Shown one piece after another: positions 1,255 through 48,870 of a DNA stretch of 50,042 nt. The position numbers and the translations under genes were made by a program. The stretch covers positions 1 to 50,042 of the IMG/VR virus record IMGVR_UViG_640753025_000001. One strand, written 5' to 3'. The notes beneath the pieces were generated by a model, which searched no databases, was not told where the DNA came from, and was given only the letters and a program-made list of their open reading frames with translations. This stretch comes from a virus (lineage: Duplodnaviria; Heunggongvirae; Uroviricota; Caudoviricetes). Positions within the stretch are counted from its first letter, which is position 1. Each line of letters begins with the position of its first letter.

Positions 1255-1368
1255 ATAAAACCGGGTGATGCAAAAGTAGCCATTTGATTCACAAGGCCAT
1301 TGACGCATCGCCCGGTTAGTTTTAACCTTGTCCACCGTGATTCACGTTCGTGAACATGTCCTTTCAGG

Positions 1369-1444
1369 GCCGATATAGCTCAGTTGGTAGAGCAGCGCAT
1401 TCGTAATGCGAAGGTCGTAGGTTCGACTCCTATTATCGGCACCA
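1369..1444 (+). tRNA. thrW: tRNA-Thr (anticodon CGU), thrW-type
   Basis: 76-nt sequence GCCGATATAGCTCAGTTGGTAGAGCAGCGCATTCGTAATGCGAAGGTCGTAGGTTCGACTCCTATTATCGGCACCA with encoded CCA end. Confidence 0.9.
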
Positions 1445-1447
1445 TTT
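1399..1447. repeat. attL core: 49-bp direct repeat covering the tRNA 3' end
   Basis: ATTCGTAATGCGAAGGTCGTAGGTTCGACTCCTATTATCGGCACCATTT is repeated exactly at 43256..43304; flanks diverge on both sides. Confidence 0.8.
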
Positions 1448-1458
1448 AAATCAATAAG

Positions 1459-2619
1459 TTACCTCGCATTTAAGTAAACCACGTTCTCCTCTTGTGCCGT
1501 ATTTGTGCCATTGCGACTTATAATCGCATCGATTTTGCTTGCGTGCTCGGTGAGATGCCCGGCTGAAAGGTGGGCGTATCTTTGAACCATTTCGAGAGTT
1601 TCCCATCCTCCCATCTCTTTAAGTGCAAGAAGAGAGACACCAGACTGAACCAGCCAGCTTGCCCAGGTATGCCTCAGGTCATGGAAGCGGAAGTTGCTAA
1701 TGCCTGCCCGCTTTAACGCTCCCTTCCATGCCTTGTTGCTGTCGGTTCTCATCTTCCTTACCGCTGCTGTTTTTGTTCCGTCGCTTCGGTAGGCAGGTTT
1801 GGTGTGGACAAACACCCATCTCTTATGGAGACCCTGCTGTTTTCTTAATATCTGGCATGCGGTTTCGTTAAGAGGAACTCCGATCGCATTGCCAGCTTTT
1901 GTTTCATCAGGGTGCATCCATGCCATTTTCTTATCCAGATCGACCTGTGACCACTCAAGGTCTGTAACGTTGGAACGGCGAAGGCCTGTCGTGATTGCAA
2001 ACATGACCACAGGGAAGAAATGAGGAGCAATTTCTGCAAACAGGCGCTTCGATTCCTCCTCTGTAAGCCATCTGATTCGTCCATTCTTAACGCGTGGTGT
2101 TGATATTTTGGGCGCCCTGTCAAGCCATCCCCATTCAACAGCCATATTGAGAATAGCGCGAAGTATTGCCAGATGCCGCGTCTTCGTTCCTTTGCTTGCC
2201 AGCTTTGGTTTATACTCCGGCACTGGCTTGCCAAGCCGCAAACACCTGTCCCGGCTCATTTCCCAGTTCAGGCGATGGCGGCGGTTTTCCATCCCGTCTA
2301 CCGCCTCCATTATTTTTTCTGTTGTTATGTCTGAGAGAATGGTTTCTCTGAAGTGCAACATCCAGAACGATATAATGCTCTTGTCATCATCAATGGACTT
2401 CTTATCCGATTTCTCACGCAGCCACCGTATGCAGGCTTCCTTGAATAGCTTTTTCGGTGATTCCCCGAGATTTTTTACTCTCCACGCTTCTGCTTTCAGA
2501 CGATCGTGAAGTTCTTGCGCTTGCCTTTTGTCCGATGTTTCAAGAGAGCGTCTAACTCTTGATCCATCTGGCGCGACGAAATCGCAGTGCCACGTGCCAC
2601 CGCGTAGTTTGATTGACAT
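1459..2619 (-). CDS. int: tyrosine integrase, P22 Int-like
   Basis: 386-aa ORF with HDLRHTW and RYAHL catalytic region; 3' end 12 bp from attL. Confidence 0.9.
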   Translation of the reverse strand: MSIKLRGGTWHCDFVAPDGSRVRRSLETSDKRQAQELHDRLKAEAWRVKNLGESPKKLFKEACIRWLREKSDKKSIDDDKSIISFWMLHFRETILSDITTEKIMEAVDGMENRRHRLNWEMSRDRCLRLGKPVPEYKPKLASKGTKTRHLAILRAILNMAVEWGWLDRAPKISTPRVKNGRIRWLTEEESKRLFAEIAPHFFPVVMFAITTGLRRSNVTDLEWSQVDLDKKMAWMHPDETKAGNAIGVPLNETACQILRKQQGLHKRWVFVHTKPAYRSDGTKTAAVRKMRTDSNKAWKGALKRAGISNFRFHDLRHTWASWLVQSGVSLLALKEMGGWETLEMVQRYAHLSAGHLTEHASKIDAIISRNGTNTAQEENVVYLNAR

Positions 2620-2843
2620 GCTTTAACCTCCTGCACATCAACCGCATTCACCGCGCTATTGTGTCTCACAGACTTAAGCGCCGCAATGCAGTCTGACTTG
2701 CAAATGCGATATGGACTTTTAGGTTTATCTGGATTTATCTTTGCGGCCTGAAGTCGTCCACTTCGTATCCACTGTGTGATAGTGCCTTTGTCTACCTTCA
2801 GATACGACGCAGCTTCTTCACGAGTGAAGATTTCTTCTTCCAC
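2496..2843 (-). CDS. xis: excisionase-like protein
   Basis: 115-aa ORF upstream of and overlapping int start; N-terminus MEEEIFTREEAASYLKV typical of P22-type Xis. Confidence 0.7.
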   Translation of the reverse strand: MEEEIFTREEAASYLKVDKGTITQWIRSGRLQAAKINPDKPKSPYRICKSDCIAALKSVRHNSAVNAVDVQEVKACQSNYAVARGTAISSRQMDQELDALLKHRTKGKRKNFTIV

Positions 2844-2928
2844 CTGGAATCTCCATTTGTTGGATTGACATTATTGCGGTAGGTCTGGATATCTTGAGAA
2901 ATGAACAGGCCTCATCGAGTGTGAGGCG

Positions 2929-3273
2929 TTAGTCCTTGCGTAGCTCGCTGATTCTTCTGTAAGTCTGTGGTGCTTTGTTTCCGTGTATCTTCATTTCAGA
3001 CTTCAACAGAGCAACGAGGGAATCCCATTCGTTGAGGATGCCTTTGAATGTCGGAACGCGCTTTGCAACCTTGTCGAATGAATCTCTGATTTCTGGAATC
3101 TGCTCAACAAGTGCAACGCATCGCCGGAAGTCTGCTGCGTCATGGGGAGCGCCGAAGTGATGACCATAGATATTCTTTTTCAGTCCACATGCGATTGAGG
3201 CAAGAGTTGCGCTACTGATGCCAACATCGCCAGTCGATTGCCATTTCAAAACCTTCATAGCCAAATCTGACAT
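2929..3273 (-). CDS. hypothetical phage protein
   Basis: 114-aa ORF, co-oriented with the early-left operon. Confidence 0.5.
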   Translation of the reverse strand: MSDLAMKVLKWQSTGDVGISSATLASIACGLKKNIYGHHFGAPHDAADFRRCVALVEQIPEIRDSFDKVAKRVPTFKGILNEWDSLVALLKSEMKIHGNKAPQTYRRISELRKD

Positions 3274-3460
3274 TTCTTGTCTCCATAAAACAAAACCCGC
3301 CGTAGCGAGTTCAGATAAAAGAAATCCCCGCGAGTGCGAGGATTGTTAGTTGCTATCTGCTGCTTCCTTGGTCATTACCATATCCACCCAATTTCACCAG
3401 ACATGATTCTCGCAATCACTATTATCACCAAAGTGATAATCACAACTTTAACTGGCGGCA

Positions 3461-4102
3461 TCATTCACCATCCTGCTCCGGCGGTTCTGGCAGCGGCATC
3501 CAGTGAGTTACGTCATCCAAGATATTTCCTGATAAATACGTGAAAGCTCTATATTTTTTGTAATCAATTGGATTTACAACCCAGTTCCAATATGCGGCCA
3601 CGATTTCACCTTGACTAAATGCCAGTAACATTTTGGTGTCTTCCGGCATTCGATCACTACAGCTTATCCAACTACCCGGAGTTACCGGAGAGTTGCCGCG
3701 TTCTTTAATGTGCAAGCGAGGCTCACCATCTTTTGGTTCAGGCCACTGGCGTTCCATGTTGATCTTCAATTTATTTTCCATAGCAGCGGTAATTTCAGCA
3801 TCACTGATACCAGCACGGCGCTGTGCATCCCACAACAGAAACTGCATATCAGCCCACTCGCTAAGATCGTCTGGTTCGGCTGCGGCTTCCAGTGCCTCTT
3901 TTGAGAGATGTTTCAGCGGACCAATGGGGCCAACGCAGCCAAATGTGGAGTCAGACCATTTGGCATGCTCGTGGCGAATCTGTTCGCGTTCCAGTGATGC
4001 CAGTGCAATTCGTGCCAGTTCCATTTGTTCGCCACGAGTAAGTCCGTTATCAAGCGGATTTTTAATGAATAATTTGATACGTTCTTTGGTTATAGCGCTC
4101 AT
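3461..4102 (-). CDS. phage protein, DUF551-like C-terminus
   Basis: ORF with AAGGAG RBS before ATG at 4102 (MSAITKE); C-terminal WMPLPEPP motif recalled from DUF551 proteins. Confidence 0.5.
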   Translation of the reverse strand: MSAITKERIKLFIKNPLDNGLTRGEQMELARIALASLEREQIRHEHAKWSDSTFGCVGPIGPLKHLSKEALEAAAEPDDLSEWADMQFLLWDAQRRAGISDAEITAAMENKLKINMERQWPEPKDGEPRLHIKERGNSPVTPGSWISCSDRMPEDTKMLLAFSQGEIVAAYWNWVVNPIDYKKYRAFTYLSGNILDDVTHWMPLPEPPEQDGE

Positions 4103-4103
4103 A

Positions 4104-4796
4104 TCACTCTCCTTTGATGCGAATGCCAGCGGTGCGGGAATCATTCCATCGCTTTACTTCTTCACGAATTACGTCAATGCATTCTTTCGAATCCATTAGG
4201 TAATCTTCATCAAAAAGACGTTCCTGTTCGTTTTCTATCGCAACAATGATTGCTTCAACTAACTTTTGTGCCTGAGAATCACTTTCTAACTCTGCTATGC
4301 GCTTCTCTGCGGCTTCCAACTTCTCGCGCATATCGTCAACGTACTCGACCAGAGATCCGCCAGCAGGAATTTCGCACTCCTCGACCAGTTGGAAGTAGAT
4401 ATCAGCTGCGGCCCGTGTGTTGCTATGCCTAGCGTCGCCCATCTCACCTTCACGAAGAGCATCGCGTTCGGCGGTAAGATTGGCTATTTTGCTGTCTTTG
4501 CCTTCCAGCTCAACTCTCAGCTTCCCAACCGTAAGAGCAATATCCTCGTTCTCCTGGTCACGGCGTTTGATGTATTGCTGGTTTCTTTCCCGTTCATCCA
4601 GTAGTGCCAGCACGGTTTCTGGTCCGGCCAGAAATTTGAAGGCGTTGAGCGCATCAATATCCACACCGTAATCTTTAAGTTCCTGTTCACTTAACAAATC
4701 ATCATCAGCTGGCAACATTAACAGGCGTTCCATTGCTGGAATTGCACGTTCCGCCGCCTCACGTAGTGCCTGATAGTCAATTGTCATACTCGCCAT
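4104..4796 (-). CDS. Ea22-like coiled-coil protein
   Basis: 230-aa acidic ORF rich in heptad-like E/L/K segments; position matches lambdoid ea22; start may be 4787. Confidence 0.5.
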   Translation of the reverse strand: MASMTIDYQALREAAERAIPAMERLLMLPADDDLLSEQELKDYGVDIDALNAFKFLAGPETVLALLDERERNQQYIKRRDQENEDIALTVGKLRVELEGKDSKIANLTAERDALREGEMGDARHSNTRAAADIYFQLVEECEIPAGGSLVEYVDDMREKLEAAEKRIAELESDSQAQKLVEAIIVAIENEQERLFDEDYLMDSKECIDVIREEVKRWNDSRTAGIRIKGE

Positions 4797-5923: not shown

Positions 5924-6325
5924 AGGCGATACCGTTATTTGATAAGAAGTGAAGGTTTCCCAACTTTGAGTTGAGCGCCGGGGATATTTATTCCTGCTTT
6001 TAGTTGGTGTTTGATTGCCAGTTTGTCGGCTTTAATTGTTGTTTCAAACTCAACGTATTCTGGAGGAAGGGCGCTTGAGTCGATGATTTCTACAGTTTCT
6101 GACGGTTTGCGGATTGTTACCTGGTGAATACCTGCTCGAATCTTTTTCTTTCCAACCATTTCAAGCGATGACGCTATATACGTCATAATGCTATCAATCT
6201 TATTTTGAATTACTGCTGCTCTTTCATTCAGTGACTTTGCCTCTTCCTTGAGGCGTTCAGCATAACCATGAATCGCCACGGGTTTAACAGACACCTCAGA
6301 GTCATTTAAGATGGCTTAAAGAGAG

Positions 6326-6610
6326 GTGCCCATGAGCGGTAAGCGTTATCCCGAAGAGTTTAAAACTGAAGCAGTCAAACAGGTTGTTGATCGCGGTTAT
6401 TCTGTTGCCAGCGTTGCAACACGTCTCGATATCACCACCCACAGCCTTTATGCCTGGATAAAGAAGTACGGTCCGGATTCTTCCACTAATAAAGAACAGT
6501 CAGATGCTCAGGCCGAGATCCGCCGTCTCCAGAAAGAGCTGAAACGGGTTACCGACGAACGGGACATATTAAAAAAAGCCGCGGCGTACTTCGCAAAGCT
6601 GTCCGACTGA
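6326..6610 (+). CDS. IS3-family transposase OrfA (HTH)
   Basis: 94-aa ORF; A-run (TTAAAAAAAGCC) near 3' end consistent with a -1 frameshift site. Confidence 0.9.
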   Translation: MPMSGKRYPEEFKTEAVKQVVDRGYSVASVATRLDITTHSLYAWIKKYGPDSSTNKEQSDAQAEIRRLQKELKRVTDERDILKKAAAYFAKLSD

Positions 6611-6666
6611 GGTACGCCTTTATCCGTGACAACTCCTGTTGCTGGCCTGTTCGCCTGCTCTGTCGG

Positions 6667-7479
6667 GTGCTGGATGTTCATCCCAGTGGTTTTTACGCCT
6701 GGCTTCAGCAGCCGCATTCACAACGCCATCAGGCAGACCTGAGACTGACAGGACAGATTAAACAGTTCTGGCTGGAATCGGGATGCGTCTATGGTTATCG
6801 CAAAATCCATCTGGATTTGCGTGACAGCGGGCAACAGTGCGGAGTAAACAGAGTCTGGAGACTGATGAAACGTGTCGGAATAAAGGCTCAGGTCGGATAC
6901 CGAAGCCCGCGGGCACGTAAAGGCGAGGCCAGTATCGTGTCACCCAACAGGCTCCAGCGACAGTTCAATCCGGATGCTCCTGATGAGCGTTGGGTAACGG
7001 ACATAACCTACATCAGGACCCACGAAGGCTGGCTGTATCTTGCCGTTGTTGTTGATCTGTTCTCACGCAAAATTATCGGCTGGTCCATGCAATCCCGGAT
7101 GACAAAGGACATTGTCCTGAACGCACTGCTGATGGCTGTATGGCGGCGTAATCCCGAAAAACAGGTGCTGGTTCATTCGGATCAGGGCAGTCAGTACACA
7201 AGCCATGAGTGGCAGTCGTTCCTGAAATCACACGGCCTGGAGGGTAGCATGAGCCGTCGCGGTAACTGCCATGATAATGCGGTTGCAGAAAGTTTTTTCC
7301 AGTTGTTGAAACGTGAACGGATAAAGAAAAAGATCTACGGAACGCGGGAAGAAGCCCGCAGTGATATTTTTGATTACATCGAAATGTTTTATAACAGTAA
7401 GCGTCGGCATGGTTCTAGCGAACAGATGTCACCGACAGAATATGAAAACCAGTATTATCAACGGCTCGGAAGTGTCTAG
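6667..7479 (+). CDS. IS3-family transposase OrfB (DDE catalytic domain)
   Basis: 270-aa ORF from first Met; expected expression as OrfAB fusion by frameshift. Confidence 0.9.
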   Translation: MLDVHPSGFYAWLQQPHSQRHQADLRLTGQIKQFWLESGCVYGYRKIHLDLRDSGQQCGVNRVWRLMKRVGIKAQVGYRSPRARKGEASIVSPNRLQRQFNPDAPDERWVTDITYIRTHEGWLYLAVVVDLFSRKIIGWSMQSRMTKDIVLNALLMAVWRRNPEKQVLVHSDQGSQYTSHEWQSFLKSHGLEGSMSRRGNCHDNAVAESFFQLLKRERIKKKIYGTREEARSDIFDYIEMFYNSKRRHGSSEQMSPTEYENQYYQRLGSV

Positions 7480-7632
7480 ATTATCCGTGGCGATTCACCA
7501 GACTCATTTTTAATAATGGCAAGAAGTTGCTCTATTTTATCGGTAAATTCTCCTTCCATGCCTTCTATTGTGTCAGCAATCATCTCTGGCTCTAAATCTG
7601 AATCCATCAATTTTGCGTATTCATTGGCAATT

Positions 7633-37407: not shown

Positions 37408-38143
37408 TTGGTGCGCCGGACGGCGCAAAAAGAAAACCGCCAGTGTGCTGCTGGCGGCCTATGTCACACCCTTACTACCACATAAGGAATGCCTAATGAC
37501 TTTGAAGAATGTAGCAAACATCGGATCCGTTGTCACGGATAAAACCATTGACAGCCAAAGTCTTCTGATGATGGTTAATGAAGCTCGCAAGTTATGTGGA
37601 GAGCCATCAGTACGTAACAACAAATTCATCGAGAAAATTGAGGATGAATTGGAGGGCGAGACCTACACAAAAAGTGTAGGTCGGAAAAACGGGGCTGACA
37701 TTGATGTTATCTCCATGACTATCAAGCAGGCGCTTCGTGTTGCTGCTCGCGAATCTAAAGCAGTTCGCCGAACACTTGTAGACAAACTTGAAAGTATGCA
37801 AGAAGCGCACATTAAAAGCGGTAAATCGTCGAGTGGACTTGTTGAGTATCGCCAGGCTCGAACATTGAAAATGACGGTTGAAGCTGTTACCAATCTGTTA
37901 GATTTGATGCCAAATCTTGCGCCGGAAGCAAAGCAGACTGCGGCAGCAAGCATAATCAACCCGATAGTTGGTTTTAATGCAATACCTCTTCCAGCAATAG
38001 AAGAGCATTACTACTCAGCAGGGGAGGTTGCAGAGCAGCTTGGAGTAACGGCAAACAAGATTGGTCGCATTGCTAACGCAAACAACTGAATCGCCACGGG
38101 TTTAACAGACACCTCAGAGTCATTTAAGATGGCTTAAAGAGAG

Positions 38144-38428
38144 GTGCCCATGAGCGGTAAGCGTTATCCCGAAGAGTTTAAAACTGAAGCAGTCAAACAG
38201 GTTGTTGATCGCGGTTATTCTGTTGCCAGCGTTGCAACACGTCTCGATATCACCACCCACAGCCTTTATGCCTGGATAAAGAAGTACGGTCCGGATTCTT
38301 CCACTAATAAAGAACAGTCAGATGCTCAGGCCGAGATCCGCCGTCTCCAGAAAGAGCTGAAACGGGTTACCGACGAACGGGACATATTAAAAAAAGCCGC
38401 GGCGTACTTCGCAAAGCTGTCCGACTGA
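38144..38428 (+). CDS. IS3-family transposase OrfA
   Basis: Identical protein to 6326..6610. Confidence 0.9.
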   Translation: MPMSGKRYPEEFKTEAVKQVVDRGYSVASVATRLDITTHSLYAWIKKYGPDSSTNKEQSDAQAEIRRLQKELKRVTDERDILKKAAAYFAKLSD

Positions 38429-38484
38429 GGTACGCCTTTATCCGTGACAACTCCTGTTGCTGGCCTGTTCGCCTGCTCTGTCGG

Positions 38485-39297
38485 GTGCTGGATGTTCATC
38501 CCAGTGGTTTTTACGCCTGGCTTCAGCAGCCGCATTCACAACGCCATCAGGCAGACCTGAGACTGACAGGACAGATTAAACAGTTCTGGCTGGAATCGGG
38601 ATGCGTCTATGGTTATCGCAAAATCCATCTGGATTTGCGTGACAGCGGGCAACAGTGCGGAGTAAACAGAGTCTGGAGACTGATGAAACGTGTCGGAATA
38701 AAGGCTCAGGTCGGATACCGAAGCCCGCGGGCACGTAAAGGCGAGGCCAGTATCGTGTCACCCAACAGGCTCCAGCGACAGTTCAATCCGGATGCTCCTG
38801 ATGAGCGTTGGGTAACGGACATAACCTACATCAGGACCCACGAAGGCTGGCTGTATCTTGCCGTTGTTGTTGATCTGTTCTCACGCAAAATTATCGGCTG
38901 GTCCATGCAATCCCGGATGACAAAGGACATTGTCCTGAACGCACTGCTGATGGCTGTATGGCGGCGTAATCCCGAAAAACAGGTGCTGGTTCATTCGGAT
39001 CAGGGCAGTCAGTACACAAGCCATGAGTGGCAGTCGTTCCTGAAATCACACGGCCTGGAGGGTAGCATGAGCCGTCGCGGTAACTGCCATGATAATGCGG
39101 TTGCAGAAAGTTTTTTCCAGTTGTTGAAACGTGAACGGATAAAGAAAAAGATCTACGGAACGCGGGAAGAAGCCCGCAGTGATATTTTTGATTACATCGA
39201 AATGTTTTATAACAGTAAGCGTCGGCATGGTTCTAGCGAACAGATGTCACCGACAGAATATGAAAACCAGTATTATCAACGGCTCGGAAGTGTCTAG
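38485..39297 (+). CDS. IS3-family transposase OrfB
   Basis: Identical protein to 6667..7479. Confidence 0.9.
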   Translation: MLDVHPSGFYAWLQQPHSQRHQADLRLTGQIKQFWLESGCVYGYRKIHLDLRDSGQQCGVNRVWRLMKRVGIKAQVGYRSPRARKGEASIVSPNRLQRQFNPDAPDERWVTDITYIRTHEGWLYLAVVVDLFSRKIIGWSMQSRMTKDIVLNALLMAVWRRNPEKQVLVHSDQGSQYTSHEWQSFLKSHGLEGSMSRRGNCHDNAVAESFFQLLKRERIKKKIYGTREEARSDIFDYIEMFYNSKRRHGSSEQMSPTEYENQYYQRLGSV

Positions 39298-39471
39298 ATT
39301 ATCCGTGGCGATTCAAACCTCAAAACTGAGCAGTACGGGAAGTTCTTCCTGGATAAATCGGCGCATTCCAGCAAACAGGTAGAGGCGTTCCGTTACAATT
39401 CTGAAGGCGTTAAAGCACTACAACACCTGCTACATGGCTCAAATGTGGCGTAACATTTTATAATGAAAACT

Positions 39472-39867: not shown

Positions 39868-41778
39868 ATGACTGACACCAATTACCTGATCTCTATGCCG
39901 TCTACACCTTTTTCGGCGCCACGAGCATTTAAATCAGTGGCGAACGGGAAAATCTATATCGGAAACCCTGACACTGACCCGGTAAATCCTGCTAACCAAA
40001 TTCCGGTATATGCCGTTAATGAGAATGGATCCGAGGTTCAGGTTTCTCAGCCAATCATCATTAACGCTGGAGGCTTCCCTGTTTATAACGGGCAGATTAT
40101 GAAGTTCATCACCAAACAGAACTTCAGCATGGCGGTGTATGATGCATATGGGGCGCAGCAGTTTTACTGGATTAATGTTGCAAATATGGACCCAAACTCT
40201 GCGTATCTGGAAGCGGTTAATGATGTTCTTGCAATGCTGGGCTCAAGCGATGGCGCAAAACTGATAGGTGGAATGAGCTTTCTTACAGCGGAAATGTACT
40301 CTCATCTTGTTGAAGGGATGGACTGGAGGAAAGCAATTCAAGCTGCTATAGACCAAGCTCACCAGAACTATTTAGCCGGAAGCGGCCCAACCAATATTCT
40401 CATTGGAGGTGAATTCTCCGTTACTCTCAATCCTAATTCAACTTTGATACCTGGTGAGGTTGCTGCGGGTCGAGGTGCGCTGTGTATGCGTAGTGGTGTA
40501 ACACTGATGGGCGGCGGAGCAATCACGCTTGATGGCAATTTTACTGGCTCAGCCAGCGGCGCAATCATTACAAACTGGGAAGGCGCCGCCGATAACTGCA
40601 AGATTCAGGGGATCACGCTTAACGGCAGCCGTGGCACCGCTGCCGGAACGGGGATTACCTGCATTAATATCTTGGACTCGGATAATGTCACTATTGATAA
40701 CGTTAAGGCGATAGATAGCACTTCTGGAGGGATTTATTTACGCCGAGCTAACAATACGGTTTATGGCTGTTCTAACTCAAGAATTATGAACTGCTACGTT
40801 CACAACGTTGAATATATTGGCATTCAGTGTGAACGCCCCAACGGGATGACCATTACGGGATGTGCCGTAGCCTCCTGCGGTGATAATGGCATTGATATCT
40901 TTGGTAACGTAACTGACGAATCTGGACAGGGAGTTGCGGAGGATGTTGTTGTTAGTAATAACACTATCCGTGATGTAAGCGTAGGAGTGTTCATCGAATC
41001 ATGCGGAAACGTGGCAATATCTTCGTGCCGTATTTCAGGATTTAGTAACTCTGGTGTTTTCTTTAACCGGATAAATACAGCTGCGTATAATTGTTCTGTA
41101 ATTGGATGCACGATAACAGGGGCGGATATTACCTCCAGCCAGGGCATCCGCTGGAAGAATGCAGTTGGTTACACTCGCGTTTATAACAACACACTAAAAA
41201 ACTGTATTGACTCCTTTGTGACAACTGGAGGGATGATTTACGTTGATATTGGGGTGAATAACCATGAAAGCATTGGCAGGTGTTTTCTTTACGTTCCCAA
41301 AAAATCTAACGGATGTGTCTATACAAGAATGGTTCAGCAGGTCTACAACGGAGTTCAGACAGATGGCATACCGTACAACACGACACCTCGTGGTTGGCCA
41401 TCCGCAAACAACACTAGGTACTATCGCTGTTCATTCACCGCGCCGTACATGATGTATTCCGCTACGACTGGGGAAGATAACCTCATTCGGGCTACAGGCA
41501 ATTTGCCATTCAACAGTGGCTGGGGGCCTGCTTACTCGCTATACAATACGATTGTTTCTGGAGAAACAGTAATAGCCATGGGGAGCTCGCTACTGTCTGC
41601 CGGTGAATACATGCTAATAAACGGTTATTATTATTTAGTTTATAGCGTCACATCATCCTATGCTGTAGTAAGGAAATGGGATGTATCCAGTCAGGACTAT
41701 ATTGCCGGAGACTACACATCTTATTTAAATAGCGCATACGCATATTCCATCTTCAGAGCTGCTTGGGGAACACTATGA
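39868..41778 (+). CDS. tailspike protein (P22-type head-binding domain + divergent receptor-binding domain)
   Basis: 636 aa; N-terminal ~110 aa (FKSVANGKIYIGNPDTDPVNPANQIPVY) collinear with P22 gp9; remainder Gly/Asn/Ser/Thr-rich with repeated short strands. Confidence 0.88.
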   Translation: MTDTNYLISMPSTPFSAPRAFKSVANGKIYIGNPDTDPVNPANQIPVYAVNENGSEVQVSQPIIINAGGFPVYNGQIMKFITKQNFSMAVYDAYGAQQFYWINVANMDPNSAYLEAVNDVLAMLGSSDGAKLIGGMSFLTAEMYSHLVEGMDWRKAIQAAIDQAHQNYLAGSGPTNILIGGEFSVTLNPNSTLIPGEVAAGRGALCMRSGVTLMGGGAITLDGNFTGSASGAIITNWEGAADNCKIQGITLNGSRGTAAGTGITCINILDSDNVTIDNVKAIDSTSGGIYLRRANNTVYGCSNSRIMNCYVHNVEYIGIQCERPNGMTITGCAVASCGDNGIDIFGNVTDESGQGVAEDVVVSNNTIRDVSVGVFIESCGNVAISSCRISGFSNSGVFFNRINTAAYNCSVIGCTITGADITSSQGIRWKNAVGYTRVYNNTLKNCIDSFVTTGGMIYVDIGVNNHESIGRCFLYVPKKSNGCVYTRMVQQVYNGVQTDGIPYNTTPRGWPSANNTRYYRCSFTAPYMMYSATTGEDNLIRATGNLPFNSGWGPAYSLYNTIVSGETVIAMGSSLLSAGEYMLINGYYYLVYSVTSSYAVVRKWDVSSQDYIAGDYTSYLNSAYAYSIFRAAWGTL

Positions 41779-42026
41779 CTTACATGAAAGGTGATTACAT
41801 ATCGACGAACTCTCGCTATGGCGAATCGAAGGTAGGATGTTTTGCCTACATAGATGACACCGTGAAAGATGGAGATCTTTATATCAGTGCTATCGGAATT
41901 TATGATGGAGAGGGCAAGGAAAATAAAATATTCGATTTCAACGTAGTAACTCTCAGTGGAGAACCTGATGATGTGTTTTCTTTGGCTAAAGAAACATACC
42001 TGAGCAATTTCTCAATAATTGATTAA
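41775..42026 (+). CDS. small hypothetical protein translationally coupled to tailspike
   Basis: ATG at 41775 overlaps tailspike TGA (ATGA); 83 aa. Confidence 0.45.
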   Translation: MTYMKGDYISTNSRYGESKVGCFAYIDDTVKDGDLYISAIGIYDGEGKENKIFDFNVVTLSGEPDDVFSLAKETYLSNFSIID

Positions 42027-42207
42027 TAATCACCACTAGGCTTTGATGGCAGAGCATTTAAACCAATGAACCTTCCAGTGCCGTAGCCAATACTTCAACA
42101 GATGGAATTCATTGGCTGAACGCCAACAAAGTCATATGATTCAGTAACATTTCCGGTTACTACCATTGATAGTCGCAACATCTATTGATCTTCCCTTACA
42201 GTAAAAC

Positions 42208-42227
42208 TACTGTATATAAAAACAGTA
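42208..42227 (+). promoter_or_regulatory. LexA (SOS) box
   Basis: TACTGTATATAAAAACAGTA fits CTGT-N8-ACAG; 18 bp upstream of ATG 42246. Confidence 0.7.
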
Positions 42228-42245
42228 ATCATCAGAGGGAAGATC

Positions 42246-42485
42246 ATGCACCGTCAGTCAGACATCTATCAGGCTTTCCGCGAGTCGGTATTGCGCAACT
42301 CCAAAGGCTACCAGTATCTGCATACAAAGGATTTTGTGTCAGCGCTGCTCCGGCGTGGGCTGCACTTTACCGACTCAGAGGCTAATGCGTGGATATCTAG
42401 AGAGCAGACGTACTTTGTCGACAAAACCACCGACCATAGCGAAAACCGTTTGTGGATGATGGCTAACATGGGGAGGGTTTTGTAA
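42246..42485 (+). CDS. hypothetical protein, first gene of LexA-box operon
   Basis: 79-aa ORF after AGAGGGAAG; stop overlaps next start (TAATG). Confidence 0.55.
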   Translation: MHRQSDIYQAFRESVLRNSKGYQYLHTKDFVSALLRRGLHFTDSEANAWISREQTYFVDKTTDHSENRLWMMANMGRVL

Positions 42486-42802
42486 TGGGCTTTCCTTCAC
42501 CCGCAGCGGACTACGTCGAGCAGCGACTGTCCGTTAACTCGATATGCAATGTTGGTCCTAACACCCGCGTTTTCGAAAGGGATGGCGGTTATGTTGTGCT
42601 GGATATCTCCCTGAAGCCAAAGCAGGGTAGTCAGGTTCTGATCCAGCACGGCGGCGGGACTGAGCTTGCCACGTTGAGAGGGAGGGCCCTGATTACTGAA
42701 GACGGCGAAGCGATTGAAGGCGAGGCCCTGGATGATATCACTGTCGCCGGCGTGGTGACACACACCATCATCGATGTGAGAAGTGACAGCGTAGCGGTAT
42801 AA
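42485..42802 (+). CDS. UmuD'-like protein (S24 fold, no Ser/Lys dyad, starts at the UmuD' N-terminus)
   Basis: 105 aa starting MGFPSPAADYVEQR, the segment just after the UmuD Cys-Gly cleavage site; GDSM Ser and catalytic Lys positions not conserved. Confidence 0.6.
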   Translation: MGFPSPAADYVEQRLSVNSICNVGPNTRVFERDGGYVVLDISLKPKQGSQVLIQHGGGTELATLRGRALITEDGEAIEGEALDDITVAGVVTHTIIDVRSDSVAV

Positions 42803-42833
42803 GGCAGGCTTTTTAGTGGCCTGCCGCTTTTGA

Positions 42834-43064
42834 TTACTGTGTCTTTTCGTCCAGCCAGTCCGCCCACCACTGCATCATTTCTCTGCGTTTATCGAGATAC
42901 TGAGCATGGTTGTATATTCCACGCACAGATCCGCCGTTGGCATGAGCGAGTTGCACTTCGATAGTTTCGTGATGCACCAAGTGATCAAAGTAATGAAATT
43001 TAACATCCAAGCCTCCATCGATCGATACTTGCGGTAGTTGATAAGGAAAAACTATGGTACACAA
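42834..43064 (-). pseudogene. C-terminal fragment of a P4-type tyrosine integrase
   Basis: EVQLAHANGGSVRGIYNHAQYLDKRREMMQWWADWLD aligns with the C-terminus of the intact integrase at 43465..44673; no N-terminal/catalytic part. Confidence 0.6.
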
Positions 43065-43255
43065 AGCGTTGCACTGGATTGCAAGGCTTTGTGCTCTTCT
43101 GTGGATGTGTGGCTACATGTTTGAAGATCGTTGTGCCGAATTTGTGACATACACATGACAACATCATGCATCAACTTTCTGTTTGTGCCATCAACTATAG
43201 CTTAGTGAATGCGGTTAATGCTTGCTAAAACAGATAGTTATGATTGGTGCTACAG

Positions 43256-43304
43256 ATTCGTAATGCGAAGGTCGTAGGTTCGACTCCTATTATCGGCACC
43301 ATTT
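43256..43304. repeat. attR core: 49-bp direct repeat (displaced 3' part of thrW)
   Basis: Exact copy of 1399..1447. Confidence 0.8.
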
Positions 43305-43464
43305 CAAACTCTTCCCAAGTCTACCGAAATCAACTAAAAGCTCGTATACTGCGGTTTCTGGCCCGTATCTTATCTCCTGTTATCAACTAGACTCAACCGA
43401 AATCAAGTCGCAGTTGGGGGCATAAGTGGGGGCATTTTGTGTTCGGTCTAGGGAGATGCCCCCA

Positions 43465-44673
43465 ATGAAACTTAATGCGCGACAGGTAGACGCAGCTAAA
43501 CCCAGAGAGAAAGCCTATAAGCTGGCAGATGGTGCTGGTTTGTATCTTGAGGTTGTTCCCTCTGGTTCCAGATACTGGCGGATGAAATATCGCTTCAATG
43601 GAAAAGAGAAGCGTATGGCCTTTGGTGTCTATCCGGCAGTGTCCCTTGCACAAGCGAGGGCACTGCGTGACGACGCCAAGAAAAAGCTTGCCGAAGGTAT
43701 CGATCCATCGCTTGCCAAGAAAGAAGAAAAGCTGGTTCGAGATGTGCAGCTAAATAATACGTTTCAGGCTGTGGCACTTGAATGGCATGGAACGAAGGTG
43801 AGCCGATGGTCAGAAGGTTATGCCTCGGACATTATCGAAGCCTTTAATAAAGATATTTTTCCCTATATTGGCCAACAACCGGTGAATGAAATCAAACCGC
43901 TGGTTCTGCTTAATGTGCTGCGTCGAATTGAAAGCCGTGGCGCGACAGAGAAGGCCAAGAAGGTTCGCCAGCGTTGCAGCGAAGTCTTTCGTTACGCCAT
44001 CGTAACCGGTCGTGCGGAATACAATCCTGCAGCGGATCTTACCAGCGCGATGTCAGGGCATGAATCGAAGCATTATCCCTTCCTTACTGTTGAGGAGTTA
44101 CCAGACTTTTTTAAAGCTCTCGCAGGCTACACAGGAAGCCCGTTAGTTGTTCTTGCGGCACGTCTGCTGATCCTCACGGGAGTTCGCACTGGCGAACTCC
44201 GAGGTGCTTTCTGGAGTGAGTTTGATCTTGAAAAAGCGGTGTGGGAGATACCTGCCGAGCGTATGAAGATGAAACGGCCTCACCTTGTCCCCCTCTCTAC
44301 CCAAGCGCTGGAAATCGTACAGCAACTCAAAGTGATGTCAGGGCAATATCCACTGGTGTTCCCGGGACGTAATGATCCCCGCAAGACGATGAGTGAAGCG
44401 AGTATTAATCAGGTTTTTAAGCGGATTGGATATACGGGGAGGGTAACGGGGCATGGTTTCCGTCACACGATGAGTACGATTTTGCATGAGGAAGGTTTCA
44501 ATACAGCGTGGATTGAAACCCAGCTGGCTCACGTTGATAAAAATGCGATTCGTGGGACGTATAACCATGCGTTGTATTTGGAAGGACGTAGGGAGATGAT
44601 GCAGTGGTATGCGGACTATATAAACGCTAATCATAATTCATGTATTTCTTTGCTGGTGAACGCTACAAAGTAG
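43465..44673 (+). CDS. int: tyrosine integrase, P4 type
   Basis: ATG at 43465 after GGGAGA; catalytic HGFRHT and RGTYNHALY regions; begins 160 bp after the tRNA 3' repeat, reading away from it. Confidence 0.9.
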   Translation: MKLNARQVDAAKPREKAYKLADGAGLYLEVVPSGSRYWRMKYRFNGKEKRMAFGVYPAVSLAQARALRDDAKKKLAEGIDPSLAKKEEKLVRDVQLNNTFQAVALEWHGTKVSRWSEGYASDIIEAFNKDIFPYIGQQPVNEIKPLVLLNVLRRIESRGATEKAKKVRQRCSEVFRYAIVTGRAEYNPAADLTSAMSGHESKHYPFLTVEELPDFFKALAGYTGSPLVVLAARLLILTGVRTGELRGAFWSEFDLEKAVWEIPAERMKMKRPHLVPLSTQALEIVQQLKVMSGQYPLVFPGRNDPRKTMSEASINQVFKRIGYTGRVTGHGFRHTMSTILHEEGFNTAWIETQLAHVDKNAIRGTYNHALYLEGRREMMQWYADYINANHNSCISLLVNATK

Positions 44674-44914: not shown

Positions 44915-46123
44915 ATGAACAGTAACTATATGCCATTCACACAACGAGATAGTCTCGGAAGATACTATACAAAAGAATCCATAAGTGCATTATTGGTTTC
45001 TCAGATGAAAGCTGAAAAAGTCAATAATATTATTGATTTAGCTTCTGGTGAGGGGAGCTTAACCTATGCTGCTTTAGACCGATGGAAGAATGCAGAAGCA
45101 TATTCTTTGGATATAGAATCTCGGATGTCAAAAAAAGTATGTGATAATCTTACTCATATTGTAACAGATGCCCTTGTTCATTCATTTCCTGAAATGCTTG
45201 CCCGACATCAAGGAAATTTTGATGTTGCAGTATGTAATCCTCCATTCACTCTCCCTGAATGGAGGGATGATTATTTTAAAATCATTAGTGAGATTGGCGC
45301 AGATAAATATATATCTGTCTCAAAATATGTCCCAGCAGAGATAATATTTATATCTCAAGTCATCAGGTTTCTTAAAAAGGGCGGTGAGGCTGGAATAATT
45401 TTACCTGATGGTATATTTACAGCAAGAAAGTTTATAGGTTTAAGACGATATTTATTGAATGAACATTCAATTACAAAAGTCATTGAATTGCCTAGGAATA
45501 TCTTCAAAAGGACAGAGGCTAAAACACATATTTTAATTTTTAATAAAAAAATTATGCCTCATCATAAAATACAATTACATTGTATAACTAAAGATGGGGA
45601 ATTGTCGCCTCCTGTTTTAATTAGAAAAGAAGATGCGGTTGAGAGAATGGACTACTCTTATCATTATAATAAAAATGAAGGTAAAGGGTTTAGCACAATA
45701 GGGATGCTTAAAAATATTTCAATTTTTAGAGGTAGGTTTAATTCAAAGGAAATTACGGAACATGTTTTTCATACGACAAAATTTAGTGGTGATGAAAAGT
45801 ACATTAAATTCCACTGCAACTCTGTAGAAGAATTGAAGCCATCAAAATTAGATGTCATTGCTAAGCCTGGTGATATATTAATAGCAAGAGTTGGGCGAAA
45901 TTTTCATAAAAAAATATTGTTTGTTGAGAGCGGCTATTCTTATATCAGTGACTGTATTTTTCTGATACGAGCCTCTGGTGGAGATAAGAAAAAACTATTT
46001 GATTTTCTTTGTTCTCAAGATGGGCAAGAGGAATTATCTCGAGCGAGTAGTGGTGTAGCCGCACAACATATTACAATGGATGCATTAAAAAAAATACATC
46101 TTGTAAGGATTAAACATGACTGA
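44915..46123 (+). CDS. N6-adenine DNA methyltransferase, gamma class
   Basis: 402 aa; GRYYTKESI (motif X-like), IIDLASGEGSLT (AdoMet motif I), CNPPF (motif IV, 45236..45247); ~160-aa C-terminal putative recognition domain; AT-rich. Confidence 0.8.
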   Translation: MNSNYMPFTQRDSLGRYYTKESISALLVSQMKAEKVNNIIDLASGEGSLTYAALDRWKNAEAYSLDIESRMSKKVCDNLTHIVTDALVHSFPEMLARHQGNFDVAVCNPPFTLPEWRDDYFKIISEIGADKYISVSKYVPAEIIFISQVIRFLKKGGEAGIILPDGIFTARKFIGLRRYLLNEHSITKVIELPRNIFKRTEAKTHILIFNKKIMPHHKIQLHCITKDGELSPPVLIRKEDAVERMDYSYHYNKNEGKGFSTIGMLKNISIFRGRFNSKEITEHVFHTTKFSGDEKYIKFHCNSVEELKPSKLDVIAKPGDILIARVGRNFHKKILFVESGYSYISDCIFLIRASGGDKKKLFDFLCSQDGQEELSRASSGVAAQHITMDALKKIHLVRIKHD

Positions 46124-47822
46124 TGTGGAATTAGATAGTAATTTTCTTATCGAGGAACGAGCTGATTATATTGATGAGGATACGATAAAAAATAATACTA
46201 TCAGATCTGGAGAGTTTTTCGATATTATACATAATGCTCTTATATCCCCAGGCATCAAACTTATAGTTGGTCCTAGGGGATGTGGTAAAACACATTTGAT
46301 GCGTTATGCTTGGGTTGAATGTAAAAACGATGATAACGCACCATTACCACTCTATGTTTCTTTTAATAAATATTTTAAGTTAGAGCCGCTTTTAAAAAAT
46401 AAACCAAATGCAATTGATCTCTTTCATAAATGGGTATTAGCAAAGATACTACTCTCTGCTTATGAAATTGCTTGCGATATTGAAGATTCTGAATATCTTG
46501 ATTTGTCAACGATACTCATAGCGGATAAAGAGTTCCTAATTAATTTAATCGTAAGGCTTGAGCAGGGTCTTTCGCCATCATTAGAACAAGAAAACATTGT
46601 TCAATTGATCAGTGTTTCTTCTGTCATATCCTCGTTGAGTTCACTATGTGATTGGCTTGAACGTAAAAGAGTCATTATTTTATTAGACGATGCAGCAATA
46701 AGCTTAACTCCTGAATATCTTTACGAGTTTTTTGATATTGTACGTAGTCTAAAAACCTCAAAAATAGCTTTAAAGGCATCGGTTTATCCTGGAACAACCG
46801 AATATGGCCCAAGGTTTCATGTTGCTCATGATGCTGAAACAATTGATGCTTGGATTTCGGTACAGCACCCTAATTATTCCTCAGTGATGGATGCTATAGC
46901 GCAGGCAAGGTTTCCTGGGTATGATGGCATTCCGGATGACTTGAAAGAGTTATTTAAATTCTCAGCATTTGGTATTCCACGTTCTTTTTTGATGATGTTA
47001 AGAGATTATCAAACAACTTTAAGTCAGACAACTCAGCAAAAATTTAATAAAATAATTGAAAGGTATGTTGAGCTTAGACTCAGCGAATACAGTTCACTAA
47101 AAGATAAGCTACCTCGATTGTTTGACATTGTTTCATTAGGTGAATCACTTTTATTAAAAGTAGTCGAATTACTCAAGGAAAGTAACTCCCAATATAAAGA
47201 AGAGAAACAAGTCATAATCGGTATAGAGAAAAATGATAATGTTTATTTTTCTCGACTCACTAAGCTATTAATTGAAACAGGGCTTTTTTATAATCTTCCT
47301 GATATTTCTCATGGTGATGGGCGTACTTATGAAAGATATATACCTCATTATGCTTTATTAATAAAGGAAAGAGTGTTTAACGAAGGAAGTAGAGGTTTTT
47401 CTCCTTCTCAGATTATTCAAAAAATACTAAGAAAGAATGCTAAGCATCCTGTCAGAAGAAACATTTCATCATTATTCAATGCTGAGCAACTTGCGAGACT
47501 TAAACTAACTTTACCTCCATGCAATAACTGCAAGACTCCGCGATTGACTGACAATCAAAAATTTTGCCATCATTGTGGGAATCAATTGATTGATGAGTCG
47601 GCCTATAATCAGTGCATGTCTATTCCACTGTCAAAAGTACCACATCTAACATCTTGGCAAATGCAAAAACTATCTGGGCTGGAAAAAGTAAAAACTATAG
47701 GAGATGTATTGTCTTTACAAGACCCTGGGAGTGAGTTAAGAAAAATTCACAGAATAGGACCCAAAATTGCCAATAAAATTATGGACAAAGTGTTATTACA
47801 TGTTGAAGAGTTTTTGTCTTAA
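46116..47822 (+). CDS. P-loop ATPase with C-terminal zinc ribbon and helix-hairpin-helix
   Basis: 568 aa; Walker A GPRGCGKTH (46269..46295), Walker B-like VIILLDDA, CNNCKTP...CHHCGNQL (from ~47519), HhH IHRIGPKIANKI; start overlaps MTase stop. Confidence 0.7.
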   Translation: MTDVELDSNFLIEERADYIDEDTIKNNTIRSGEFFDIIHNALISPGIKLIVGPRGCGKTHLMRYAWVECKNDDNAPLPLYVSFNKYFKLEPLLKNKPNAIDLFHKWVLAKILLSAYEIACDIEDSEYLDLSTILIADKEFLINLIVRLEQGLSPSLEQENIVQLISVSSVISSLSSLCDWLERKRVIILLDDAAISLTPEYLYEFFDIVRSLKTSKIALKASVYPGTTEYGPRFHVAHDAETIDAWISVQHPNYSSVMDAIAQARFPGYDGIPDDLKELFKFSAFGIPRSFLMMLRDYQTTLSQTTQQKFNKIIERYVELRLSEYSSLKDKLPRLFDIVSLGESLLLKVVELLKESNSQYKEEKQVIIGIEKNDNVYFSRLTKLLIETGLFYNLPDISHGDGRTYERYIPHYALLIKERVFNEGSRGFSPSQIIQKILRKNAKHPVRRNISSLFNAEQLARLKLTLPPCNNCKTPRLTDNQKFCHHCGNQLIDESAYNQCMSIPLSKVPHLTSWQMQKLSGLEKVKTIGDVLSLQDPGSELRKIHRIGPKIANKIMDKVLLHVEEFLS

Positions 47823-47892
47823 TTTTGATGGCATGTACTTGTCAATCGTGTCTTTCTTATCTGAAAAGTTTAATTTAAAAAGAGTCGGGAAA

Positions 47893-48870
47893 ATGGAACT
47901 AGAATCAAAAGAGGATTATGAAGAGACCACTCATCATAATGTGGCGTCCTCAGTTGTCACTGCAACCCATGATAACTTAGATGGAAGAGAGTTTTTTGAA
48001 CTATGTAGTAATCCAGCTCTAGTTTTTTCGTTTGAGACACACAAAAAATTTAATGAGTTACCTGTTGATAGCAAGGAATCCCCGTTAGATCTTTTTATAG
48101 CTAATACAAAGCAACTTCACTTGTTAAGATCTGGTGATATTTCAAACACATTAAGCCATCTGTTGTTATTAGGTTATGTGTCTGCAGCCGAAAGTTATTT
48201 GCGAGCTCTTATCAGAAATCTAATTAATCATGATGAATATATACAGTCTATAGTTTCTGATAAGGCCGTTAGTTATGCAGCGGCACAACACCATAAAAAG
48301 GAGTTATTACCAGAAGCTTTACTTGAGGACTTTTCATTGGCAAGCCCTTATAATGTTTTTGAAACATTAAAGGACATTATTGGAATGAAAGGACAACGAC
48401 CAATCGAAATGATGAAATGCTCAAGCGAATTCATGAAAGTTTGCGAGTTAAGGCATTGTTGTGTTCATCGATTTGGTAAGTTGGGTTCGAAAAATGCAAT
48501 CCGACTAGGATTGGCTGAACATATGAAGCACTTAGAAAAACCGATAATACTCAATAATGATGATCTCGAGCAAATCGCATTTATTGTTGAGAATTTTATT
48601 AGAACTTTGAATAATACCGTTTTCAAATTTATAATTAATCGTACAGTTGAGAACAAAAATAAGGAAAAAGGAGGGGAAAGACTATATGATTCTGAATGGA
48701 CATGGGTGTTTGAAAAAGATATAAGTCGATACGAAAAGTATTATTCAATATTTAGTGCCAAAAACGATACCCTTCCCGGATTATCATTACAGGATTCATA
48801 TCAACTTTTTGTTAATGCATATAAGCCTAAACTTCCTGCAAGAAAAAATAAAAAAACTGAAGAAAATTAA
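47893..48870 (+). CDS. hypothetical protein with Rx4H (HEPN-like) motif
   Basis: 325 aa from ATG 47893; RHCCVH at 48451..48468; AT-rich; alternative in-frame starts at 47767 and 47833. Confidence 0.5.
   Translation: MELESKEDYEETTHHNVASSVVTATHDNLDGREFFELCSNPALVFSFETHKKFNELPVDSKESPLDLFIANTKQLHLLRSGDISNTLSHLLLLGYVSAAESYLRALIRNLINHDEYIQSIVSDKAVSYAAAQHHKKELLPEALLEDFSLASPYNVFETLKDIIGMKGQRPIEMMKCSSEFMKVCELRHCCVHRFGKLGSKNAIRLGLAEHMKHLEKPIILNNDDLEQIAFIVENFIRTLNNTVFKFIINRTVENKNKEKGGERLYDSEWTWVFEKDISRYEKYYSIFSAKNDTLPGLSLQDSYQLFVNAYKPKLPARKNKKTEEN

What the first reader, a model, noticed from the sequence alone, without database searches (positions are those of the whole stretch)
42834..43064. Orphan C-terminal fragment of a second P4-type integrase inside the prophage, 190 bp from attR
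The last ~40 codons of a P4-type integrase (similar but not identical to the intact one 400 bp away) lie on the minus strand inside the prophage repeats, with no N-terminal or catalytic part. It is a mirror image of the intact gene across the att core. Together with the adjacent LexA-controlled cassette this suggests the attP-proximal arm was picked up from an earlier thrW-resident element.
Basis: partly seen in the sequence, partly recalled or inferred. Interest (0 to 1): 0.4.

Follow-up and report, generated by a model that had tools for sequence, protein, structure and literature searches.

The report
Leftover integrase stub from module swap
The fragment is real but ordinary: it is the dead last 43 codons of an argW-type (IntS) phage integrase gene, left behind when a P22-like phage exchanged its integration module for a thrW-specific one, and it did not come from the neighbouring thrW island.

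Summary
Window 42834-42964 (minus strand) is the last 43 codons plus stop of a P4-architecture integrase. RefSeq already annotates it as a partial integrase pseudogene in E. coli HS. The rest of the ORF (42965-43064) is not integrase.

The proposed origin does not hold. The stub resembles the adjacent island integrase only weakly (48% aa; 74.6% nt over 67 nt). It is 42/44 aa identical to IntS, the argW-specific integrase of KplE1/CPS-53, HK620 and Sf6. Both parental arrangements exist in other E. coli:
- LexA cassette, terminator, then full-length intS beside argW. This is colinear with window 42084-42964 at 98.75%, and the homology stops at 42964.
- gtrCBA, gtr leader, hairpin, then the thrW attP arm. 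This matches from 42987 rightwards.

The stub is therefore a non-homologous junction scar of an integration-module exchange. About 31 other E. coli genomes and 4 viral contigs share the identical junction. The same intS end, cut at other points, borders a lambda-type module (434, JEP4) and a dacD-adjacent prophage end. HS's copy is itself chimeric within the stub (crossover 42889-42914), so the scar has served as a homology patch for exchanging the cassette.

It is most likely non-functional. Interest is low.

The parts
42834..42964 (-). 3' stub of an IntS-type (argW-specific) integrase gene: 43 codons plus stop, equal to IntS residues 343-385
   Evidence: 42/44 aa identical to full-length IntS of E. 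coli AR Bank #0346. DNA is colinear at 98.75% and the homology ends exactly at 42964. It is 91-94% identical to intS of K-12, HK620, Sf6, CUS-3 and IME10. PGAP annotates it as a partial integrase pseudogene.
42889..42914 (.). Interval inside the stub that contains a homologous crossover. To its left HS equals the argW-type allele; to its right HS equals the thrW-scar allele.
   Evidence: HS vs AR0346: 0 mismatches in 42800-42914, then 6 in 42915-42960. HS vs ZF8-1: many mismatches up to 42858, one at 42888, none in 42889-42991. All the differences lie at third codon positions.
42965..42986 (.). 22 nt of unassigned origin at the non-homologous junction. It may be a divergent gtr leader or filler DNA.
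   Evidence: It matches neither parent. It occupies the position of the roughly 25-nt gtrA leader and is about 54% identical to it (my count). It occurs only together with the stub in 4 viral contigs and has no exact match in the species-representative genomes.
42987..43059 (-). Stub of the gtrA promoter/leader region, without the gtr genes
   Evidence: 95% identical to the sequence immediately upstream of gtrA (yfdG) in the thrW prophage of strain 19451123, and 83% to the same region in strain DAM. The gtrA start codon maps to window 42963-42965. The P22 gtr transcription start lies 25 bp upstream of gtrA (PMC2909390).
43060..43093 (.). Hairpin X', a terminator-like element that recurs at the edge of integration modules
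   Evidence: dG -18.9 kcal/mol, z = -4.7. It lies just downstream of the intS stop in argW prophages, at the left edge of the thrW attP arm in HK446/mEp213, and left of the intS stub in 434/JEP4. In ZF8-1 two copies flank the scar.
43094..43255 (.). P arm of the thrW-type attP
   Evidence: 95-97% identical to the annotated attP regions of HK446, HK542, mEp213, HK75 and SfX.
43256..43307 (+). attR core: duplicate of the 3' part of thrW
   Evidence: 51/52 identical to 1399-1450. It contains the P22 attP core ATGCGAAGGTCGTAGGTTCGACT (PMC8022706).
1399..1450 (+). attL core within thrW
1459..2619 (-). The prophage's working integrase (SfX/HK446 type, thrW-specific), unrelated to the stub
   Evidence: 100% aa identity to HK446 Int and 54.5% to P22 Int. 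Pfam finds Phage_integrase only, with no Arm-DNA-bind_3 domain. No similarity to the stub.
42803..42825 (+). Terminator hairpin between the cassette and the stop codon of the stub
   Evidence: It is identical in AR0346 and XJ23PTE1.
42084..42802 (+). LexA-box moron cassette inherited together with the left part of the stub: box at 42208-42227, ORF79 at 42246-42485, UmuD'-like ORF105 at 42485-42802
   Evidence: Colinear with the stub in argW prophages. PHROG phrog_3893 and phrog_3469 'UmuD-like'. Alignment to UmuD starts at Gly25.

Best explanation
The fragment is a non-functional junction scar.

In IntS-type P22-like phages (Sf6, HK620, KplE1/CPS-53 and relatives) the order is: tailspike, moron slot, intS reading leftward, attP(argW), xis reading leftward. 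The 3' end of intS therefore abuts the moron slot.

A non-homologous crossover joined two phages. The first was of the IntS type and was cut 131 nt before the end of intS. The second was a thrW-type phage with the layout gtrCBA, gtr leader/promoter, hairpin X', attP(thrW), int. It was cut at, or within about 25 nt of, the gtrA start codon. The product keeps the tailspike-side genes, the intS stub and a gtr promoter stub. It integrates with the SfX/HK446-type Int at thrW.

Later, homologous recombination inside the surviving stub (crossover 42889-42914) brought in the LexA-controlled UmuD'-like cassette from an argW-type phage. That gave the arrangement now seen in E. coli HS prophage phiHS4.

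Shown here: both parental arrangements, the exact breakpoints, the shared junction in other genomes, and the chimeric SNP pattern. Inferred: the order of the events and the absence of any present function.
For: 1. Parent A exists. In E. coli AR Bank #0346 the order is cassette, terminator, full-length intS (385 aa), tRNA-Arg, yfdC. It is colinear with window 42084-42964 at 98.75%, and the homology stops at 42964.

2. Parent B exists. In strain 19451123 the order is gtrC, gtrB, gtrA, then a 95% match to window 42987-43302. The gtrA start codon maps to window 42963-42965.

3. ZF8-1 shows the form the model predicts before the cassette arrived: tailspike, X', intS stub, gtr leader stub, X', attP(thrW).

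4. The identical junction ...CACTTCGATAG|TTTCGTGATG... is present in ZF8-1, strain 1283, about 31 further E. coli genomes and 4 IMG/VR contigs, with different left flanks.

5. The SNP pattern within the stub is chimeric, and every difference is at a wobble position. These are allelic differences between functional intS genes, not decay.

6. The same intS end is truncated at other points next to other modules. A lambda-type attP/int borders it in 434 and JEP4, where the remnant equals 42843-42919. A dacD-adjacent prophage end borders it in XJ23PTE1, which has the same tailspike and cassette and loses homology at 42894.

7. Published work on KplE1 places intS as the first gene and the RDF torI as the last gene of the prophage (PMC3509656). 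This gives the geometry used above.

8. The fragment has no Pfam hit and lacks everything N-terminal of IntS residue 342.
Against: - The 22 nt at 42965-42986 match neither parent, so the exact B-side breakpoint and the B-parent allele are not pinned down.
- The order of events (module swap first, cassette second) rests on a few SNPs within 130 nt.
- Absence of function is inferred, not tested. The reading frame is still open, a probable gtr promoter stub points into it, and the stub recurs at several module boundaries.
Confidence: 0.88

Rival explanations
1. One reading: the stub and cassette are remains of an earlier P4-like element resident at thrW, picked up by the phage, for example by imprecise excision.
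For: The stub belongs to the same broad integrase family as the island integrase 400 bp away (48% aa identity). It lies close to attR.
Against: - DNA identity to the island integrase is only 74.6% over 67 nt, against 98.75% colinear identity, cassette included, with argW prophages that carry an intact intS.
- Between the stub and att lies a complete, conserved phage attP arm plus a gtr promoter stub. No host or island DNA is there, which argues against imprecise excision.
- The same junction also occurs next to different right-hand flanks.
Confidence: 0.02
2. The stub is kept because it does something. One option is a transcript started at the retained gtr promoter stub that runs through the stub and regulates the convergent LexA cassette. 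A second is a 76-aa peptide. A third is a selected 'linker' that promotes exchange of morons between phages with different integration modules.
For: - The frame is open for 76 codons.
- The gtr promoter region upstream is retained up to about the mapped transcription start.
- Stubs of the same gene recur beside three different kinds of module boundary.
- HS shows one real crossover inside the stub.
Against: - The only candidate start is a TTG with no evident ribosome-binding site, and there is no internal Met before the last 14 residues.
- The promoter scan finds no minus-strand promoter between 42965 and 43100.
- Only 1 of the 4 GATC sites of the P22 phase-variation region is present.
- The stubs have different lengths (about 52, 77 and 131 nt), so no common element beyond the last roughly 50 nt is conserved.
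- Recurrence is explained by geometry alone, because the intS 3' end abuts the moron slot.
Confidence: 0.07
3. A second integrase gene once stood here intact and decayed in place.
For: None beyond the presence of a fragment.
Against: - A 1158-nt intS ending at 42834 would extend to about 43991, through the attP arm, the att core and into the island integrase.
- Homology ends abruptly at 42964 against an unrelated but identifiable sequence.
- There are no frameshifts or stops, and all differences are synonymous-position changes.
Confidence: 0.01

Closest known systems
intS, the integrase of the argW recombination module of KplE1/CPS-53, HK620 and Sf6 (Panis et al.; PMC3509656, PMC2951348)
   Same: The stub is the 3' end of this gene: 42/44 aa and 91-99% nt identity. 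It has the same stop-codon context and the same neighbourhood as in argW prophages, being convergent with the moron that follows the tailspike.
   Different: Only residues 343-385 remain. There is no arm-binding, core-binding or main catalytic region. It lies in a thrW prophage rather than at argW. It is joined to a gtr promoter stub.
Gene-fragment scars at mosaic joints of lambdoid and P22-like phages (the non-homologous recombination plus selection model of Hendrix, Juhala and Casjens; from my own knowledge)
   Same: Homology breaks abruptly inside a gene. Both parental arrangements are still extant. The neighbouring modules are functional. The shared remnant is later used for homologous exchange.
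   Different: Nothing essential differs. This is a particularly clean example, with the same gene truncated at three or more different points next to different integration modules.
The intS stub left of attP in coliphage 434 and P22-like phage JEP4
   Same: It comes from the same gene end (window 42843-42919 equivalent, 91% identity). It has the same position, between the moron or b region and an integration module of another type.
   Different: The breakpoint differs (77 nt vs 131 nt). The partner module is lambda-type int/attP. It is preceded by hairpin X' instead of the LexA cassette.
The thrW island integrase right of attR (43465-44673; P4-type, CP4-6 position)
   Same: The parent gene has the same Pfam architecture, and the C-terminal motif is conserved (48% aa).
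   Different: It is not the source of the stub: only 74.6% nt identity over 67 nt. It is a different lineage with a different tRNA target.

Membership tests
IntS-type (argW) integrase gene | High sequence identity to intS across the region present | tested here: met
   42/44 aa, E = 6e-31. 98.75% nt identity, colinear with AR0346. 91-94% to K-12, HK620 and Sf6 intS.
IntS-type (argW) integrase gene | Complete gene with arm-binding, central and catalytic domains | tested here: not met
   Only the last 43 codons are present. The fragment has no Pfam hit, whereas full IntS has three domains. It is a pseudogene remnant, not a member in the functional sense.
IntS-type (argW) integrase gene | Location next to tRNA-Arg argW with attL between them | tested here: not met
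   The stub lies about 290 bp left of a thrW attR. Its intact relatives lie next to argW.
P4-type integrase (Arm-DNA-bind_3 / Phage_int_M / Phage_integrase architecture) | Domain architecture of the gene the stub derives from | tested here: met
   IntS of AR0346 has PF13356 + PF22022 + PF00589. The island integrase has the same set.
   The stub is 48% aa and 74.6% nt (67 nt) identical to the HS island integrase and 76% to the ZF8-1 island integrase. Every megablast hit with an annotated full-length gene under it falls on intS; the rest are partial 'integrase' pseudogenes or unannotated prophage sequence.
Mosaic-joint scar from non-homologous recombination | Abrupt end of homology, with each side continuing in a different extant parent | tested here: met
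   The three-way comparison places the A-side break at 42964/42965 and the B-side match from about 42987.
Mosaic-joint scar from non-homologous recombination | The same junction is inherited by several genomes | tested here: met
   33 E. coli genomes and 4 IMG/VR contigs share the junction.
Functional small gene or regulatory RNA | Transcription, translation or a phenotype | not testable with these tools
   Only consensus scans are available. They find no minus-strand promoter between 42965 and 43100.

The most novel reading that the evidence does not exclude
The intS 3' stub, possibly together with hairpin X', is a selectively retained 'linker' that lets P22-like and lambdoid phages with different integration modules (argW, thrW, lambda attB, dacD-adjacent) swap the moron cassette behind the tailspike by homologous recombination. 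Alternatively, the retained gtr promoter stub transcribes it as an antisense or terminating RNA against the convergent LexA-controlled UmuD'-like cassette.
Probability: 0.07. Interest if true: 0.45.

Novelty: already known. Interest (0 to 1): 0.12.

Why it matters
It matters little for biology at large. The fragment is a pseudogene scar that RefSeq already annotates as a partial integrase, and it belongs to a well-studied integrase family.

Its value is as a clean, base-resolved record of how temperate phages change their chromosomal integration site. Both parents are still extant. The identical junction is inherited by about 30 genomes. The same gene is cut at other points next to other modules. 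One later homologous crossover inside the scar moved an SOS-controlled cassette.

The attP-proximal arm of phiHS4 came from argW-type P22-like phages, not from a thrW island.

Tried and rejected
1. Similarity to the prophage's own Int: none.

2. Source of the 22-nt junction segment (42965-42986). An exact-pattern scan of IMG/VR found only copies already attached to the stub. A scan of the GTDB representative genomes found nothing. Its origin stays open.

3. Whether the retained gtr stub is a P22-style phase-variable promoter. Only one GATC (43020) falls where the four P22 sites would be, and the consensus scan gives no minus-strand promoter there. The idea was not pursued further.

4. Pfam on the fragment and on the two cassette ORFs gave no hits. 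PHROGs and PDB were needed to identify ORF105 as UmuD'-like.

5. Literature. I found no paper describing this stub. The phiHS4 preprint does not mention integrase, and the epsilon34 and phage L papers do not discuss int remnants.

6. I considered and rejected in-place decay of a full gene, because the geometry is impossible. I also rejected imprecise excision from thrW, because an intact attP arm lies between the stub and att.

Full report
**Setting.** The window is the proA-thrW region of the E. coli HS chromosome (100% match).
- tRNA-Thr(CGT) thrW lies at 1369-1444.
- A 52-nt direct repeat (1399-1450 and 43256-43307, 51/52 identical) bounds a prophage of about 41.9 kb. The repeat contains the published P22 attP core (PMC8022706).
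- The tailspike (P22-type head-binding N-terminus) and the RefSeq features (Arc, antirepressor) in close relatives mark the prophage as P22-like.
- It is the mitomycin-inducible, curable prophage phiHS4 of a 2026 preprint.
- Its own integrase (1459-2619, minus strand) is 100% identical to that of the thrW-integrating phage HK446 and 54.5% identical to P22 Int. It lacks the Arm-DNA-bind_3 domain.
- Right of attR lies a separate island that starts with a P4-architecture integrase (43465-44673).

**The observation.** ORF 42834-43064 (minus strand, 76 codons, TTG start) ends in 44 residues that are clearly integrase.
- Identity to the island integrase is 26/54 (E = 3e-17). Identity to residues 342-385 of a full-length IntS is 42/44 (E = 6e-31).
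- Only 42834-42964 is integrase-derived. PGAP annotates 42834-42968 as 'integrase, incomplete, missing N-terminus'.

**What the stub derives from.** At the DNA level it is 91-94% identical to the 3' end of intS. This is the integrase of the argW recombination module of KplE1/CPS-53, HK620, Sf6, CUS-3 and IME10, and it occurs in well over a thousand E. coli genomes. Against the island integrase next door the stub reaches only 74.6% over 67 nt. IntS has the P4-type architecture, so 'P4-type' is correct, but the lineage is the argW one.

**Geometry.** In argW prophages the order is argW, intS, moron or gtr genes, tailspike. The RDF sits at the far end (PMC3509656). In the circular phage, the 3' end of intS therefore abuts the moron slot behind the tailspike and converges on it. 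The stub occupies exactly that position in the window.

**Both parents are extant.**
- Parent A is E. coli AR Bank #0346. Its order is cassette (ORF79 + ORF105), terminator, full-length intS, tRNA-Arg, yfdC. It is colinear with window 42084-42964 at 98.75%, and the homology ends at 42964.
- Parent B is strain 19451123. Its order is gtrC, gtrB, gtrA, followed by a 95% match to window 42987-43302. That match comprises the gtrA leader/promoter, a strong hairpin here called X' (43060-43093; -18.9 kcal/mol, z = -4.7) and the thrW attP arm. The same arm is annotated as attP in HK446, mEp213 and related phages.
- In parent B's register the gtrA start codon falls on window 42963-42965. The P22 gtr transcription start lies 25 bp upstream of gtrA (PMC2909390).
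- The 22 nt at 42965-42986 match neither parent. They have the length and position of the gtr leader and about 54% identity to it. Their origin is unresolved.

**One non-homologous crossover explains the structure.** The crossover joined parent A, cut 131 nt before the end of intS, to parent B, cut at about the gtrA start. The product is: tailspike side, intS stub, gtr promoter stub, X', attP(thrW), int.
- Strain ZF8-1 shows the predicted plain form, with an X' hairpin on each side of the scar.
- The identical junction (...CACTTCGATAG|TTTCGTGATG...) is present in ZF8-1, strain 1283, about 31 further E. coli genomes and four IMG/VR contigs, with various left flanks. It is an inherited scar of a single event.

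**The HS copy is chimeric inside the stub.**
- It is identical to AR0346 from the cassette up to 42914, then differs at six sites in 42915-42960.
- It differs from ZF8-1 at many sites up to 42858 and once at 42888, then is identical through 42991.
- All these differences are at third codon positions. They are allelic differences between working intS genes, not decay.
- The simplest reading is that a thrW-type phage already carrying the scar acquired the LexA-controlled cassette from an argW-type phage by homologous recombination within the 131-nt stub (crossover 42889-42914). The reverse order of events is not strictly excluded.

**The same gene end is truncated elsewhere at other points.**
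- In coliphage 434 and the P22-like phage JEP4, a 77-nt stub (equal to 42843-42919) preceded by X' lies left of a lambda-type attP/int.
- In strain XJ23PTE1, a prophage with the same tailspike and cassette as phiHS4 ends next to dacD and keeps only 42834-42894.
- Shorter stubs also appear in the E. coli search.
- This recurrence follows from the geometry. Any replacement of the IntS module that spares the neighbouring moron must cut inside or beyond the intS 3' end.

It is right that this is an orphan end of a second, P4-architecture integrase and that the arm is foreign. It is wrong that the arm came from an earlier thrW-resident element. Three points count against that idea:
- The donor lineage is argW-type P22-like phage.
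- A complete phage attP arm separates the stub from att.
- A full-length gene in this position would overrun the att core.
The 'mirror image' with the island integrase is coincidental.

**Function.** The stub is most likely non-functional.
- It lacks everything N-terminal of IntS residue 342.
- It has no credible translation start.
- The consensus scan finds no minus-strand promoter in the gtr stub.
- Only one of the four GATC sites of the P22 phase-variation region is retained.
A residual possibility of about 7% is that the stub is transcribed from the gtr promoter stub against the convergent cassette, or is retained as a recombination linker. This needs RNA and deletion experiments.

**Novelty.** The feature is already annotated as a partial integrase, and the phenomenon (gene stubs at mosaic joints) is textbook for lambdoid phages. 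The added value is a base-resolved reconstruction with extant parents. Interest is low.

Noticed in passing
window 6269-7497 and 38087-39315: Two 100% identical 1229-bp IS3-family insertion sequences lie in direct orientation inside the inducible prophage. Each has an orfA (HTH_Tnp_1) and an orfB (rve). Each has its own 3-bp target duplication (CCA and AAC). The repeat tool reported only the first 300 nt.
   Followed up: partly
window 42208-42802: A moron cassette with a perfect LexA box (TACTGTATATAAAAACAGTA, 42208-42227), ORF79 (phrog_3893, function unknown) and ORF105. ORF105 aligns to UmuD starting exactly at Gly25, the N-terminus of the RecA-cleaved UmuD'. It has Tyr where the catalytic Ser would be, so it looks like a pre-cleaved, catalytically dead UmuD' look-alike under SOS control. 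The same cassette sits between tailspike and integrase in Klebsiella phages (80-87% nt).
   Followed up: partly
window 42987-43059: A gtrA promoter/leader stub survives without any gtr gene. Only one GATC (43020) remains of the four that drive Dam/OxyR phase variation in P22 gtr.
   Followed up: partly
window 43060-43093; L009 3437-3470; L004 3001-3044: A conserved hairpin (X', -18.9 kcal/mol) marks the outer edge of three different integration modules: after the intS stop, at the left edge of the thrW attP arm, and left of the intS stub in 434/JEP4. It is probably the terminator that ends int transcription, and it is a recurrent mosaic boundary.
   Followed up: partly
L008 (E. coli XJ23PTE1) 1-4298: A prophage with the same tailspike, ORF87 and LexA cassette as phiHS4 (99.7% identical) ends next to dacD instead of thrW and keeps only about 61 nt of the intS stub. 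Near-identical virion and moron genes are therefore combined with a third integration site.
   Followed up: no
window 44915-48870: The island right of attR carries, after its P4-type integrase, an HsdM-family methyltransferase, a zinc-ribbon protein (568 aa) and a further 367-aa ORF. This may be a defence locus. It was not examined.
   Followed up: no
window 41763-42026: An 87-aa ORF directly follows, and slightly overlaps, the tailspike gene. It has no Pfam or PHROG hit. The identical protein (WP_000221849.1) is annotated in the XJ23PTE1 prophage.
   Followed up: no
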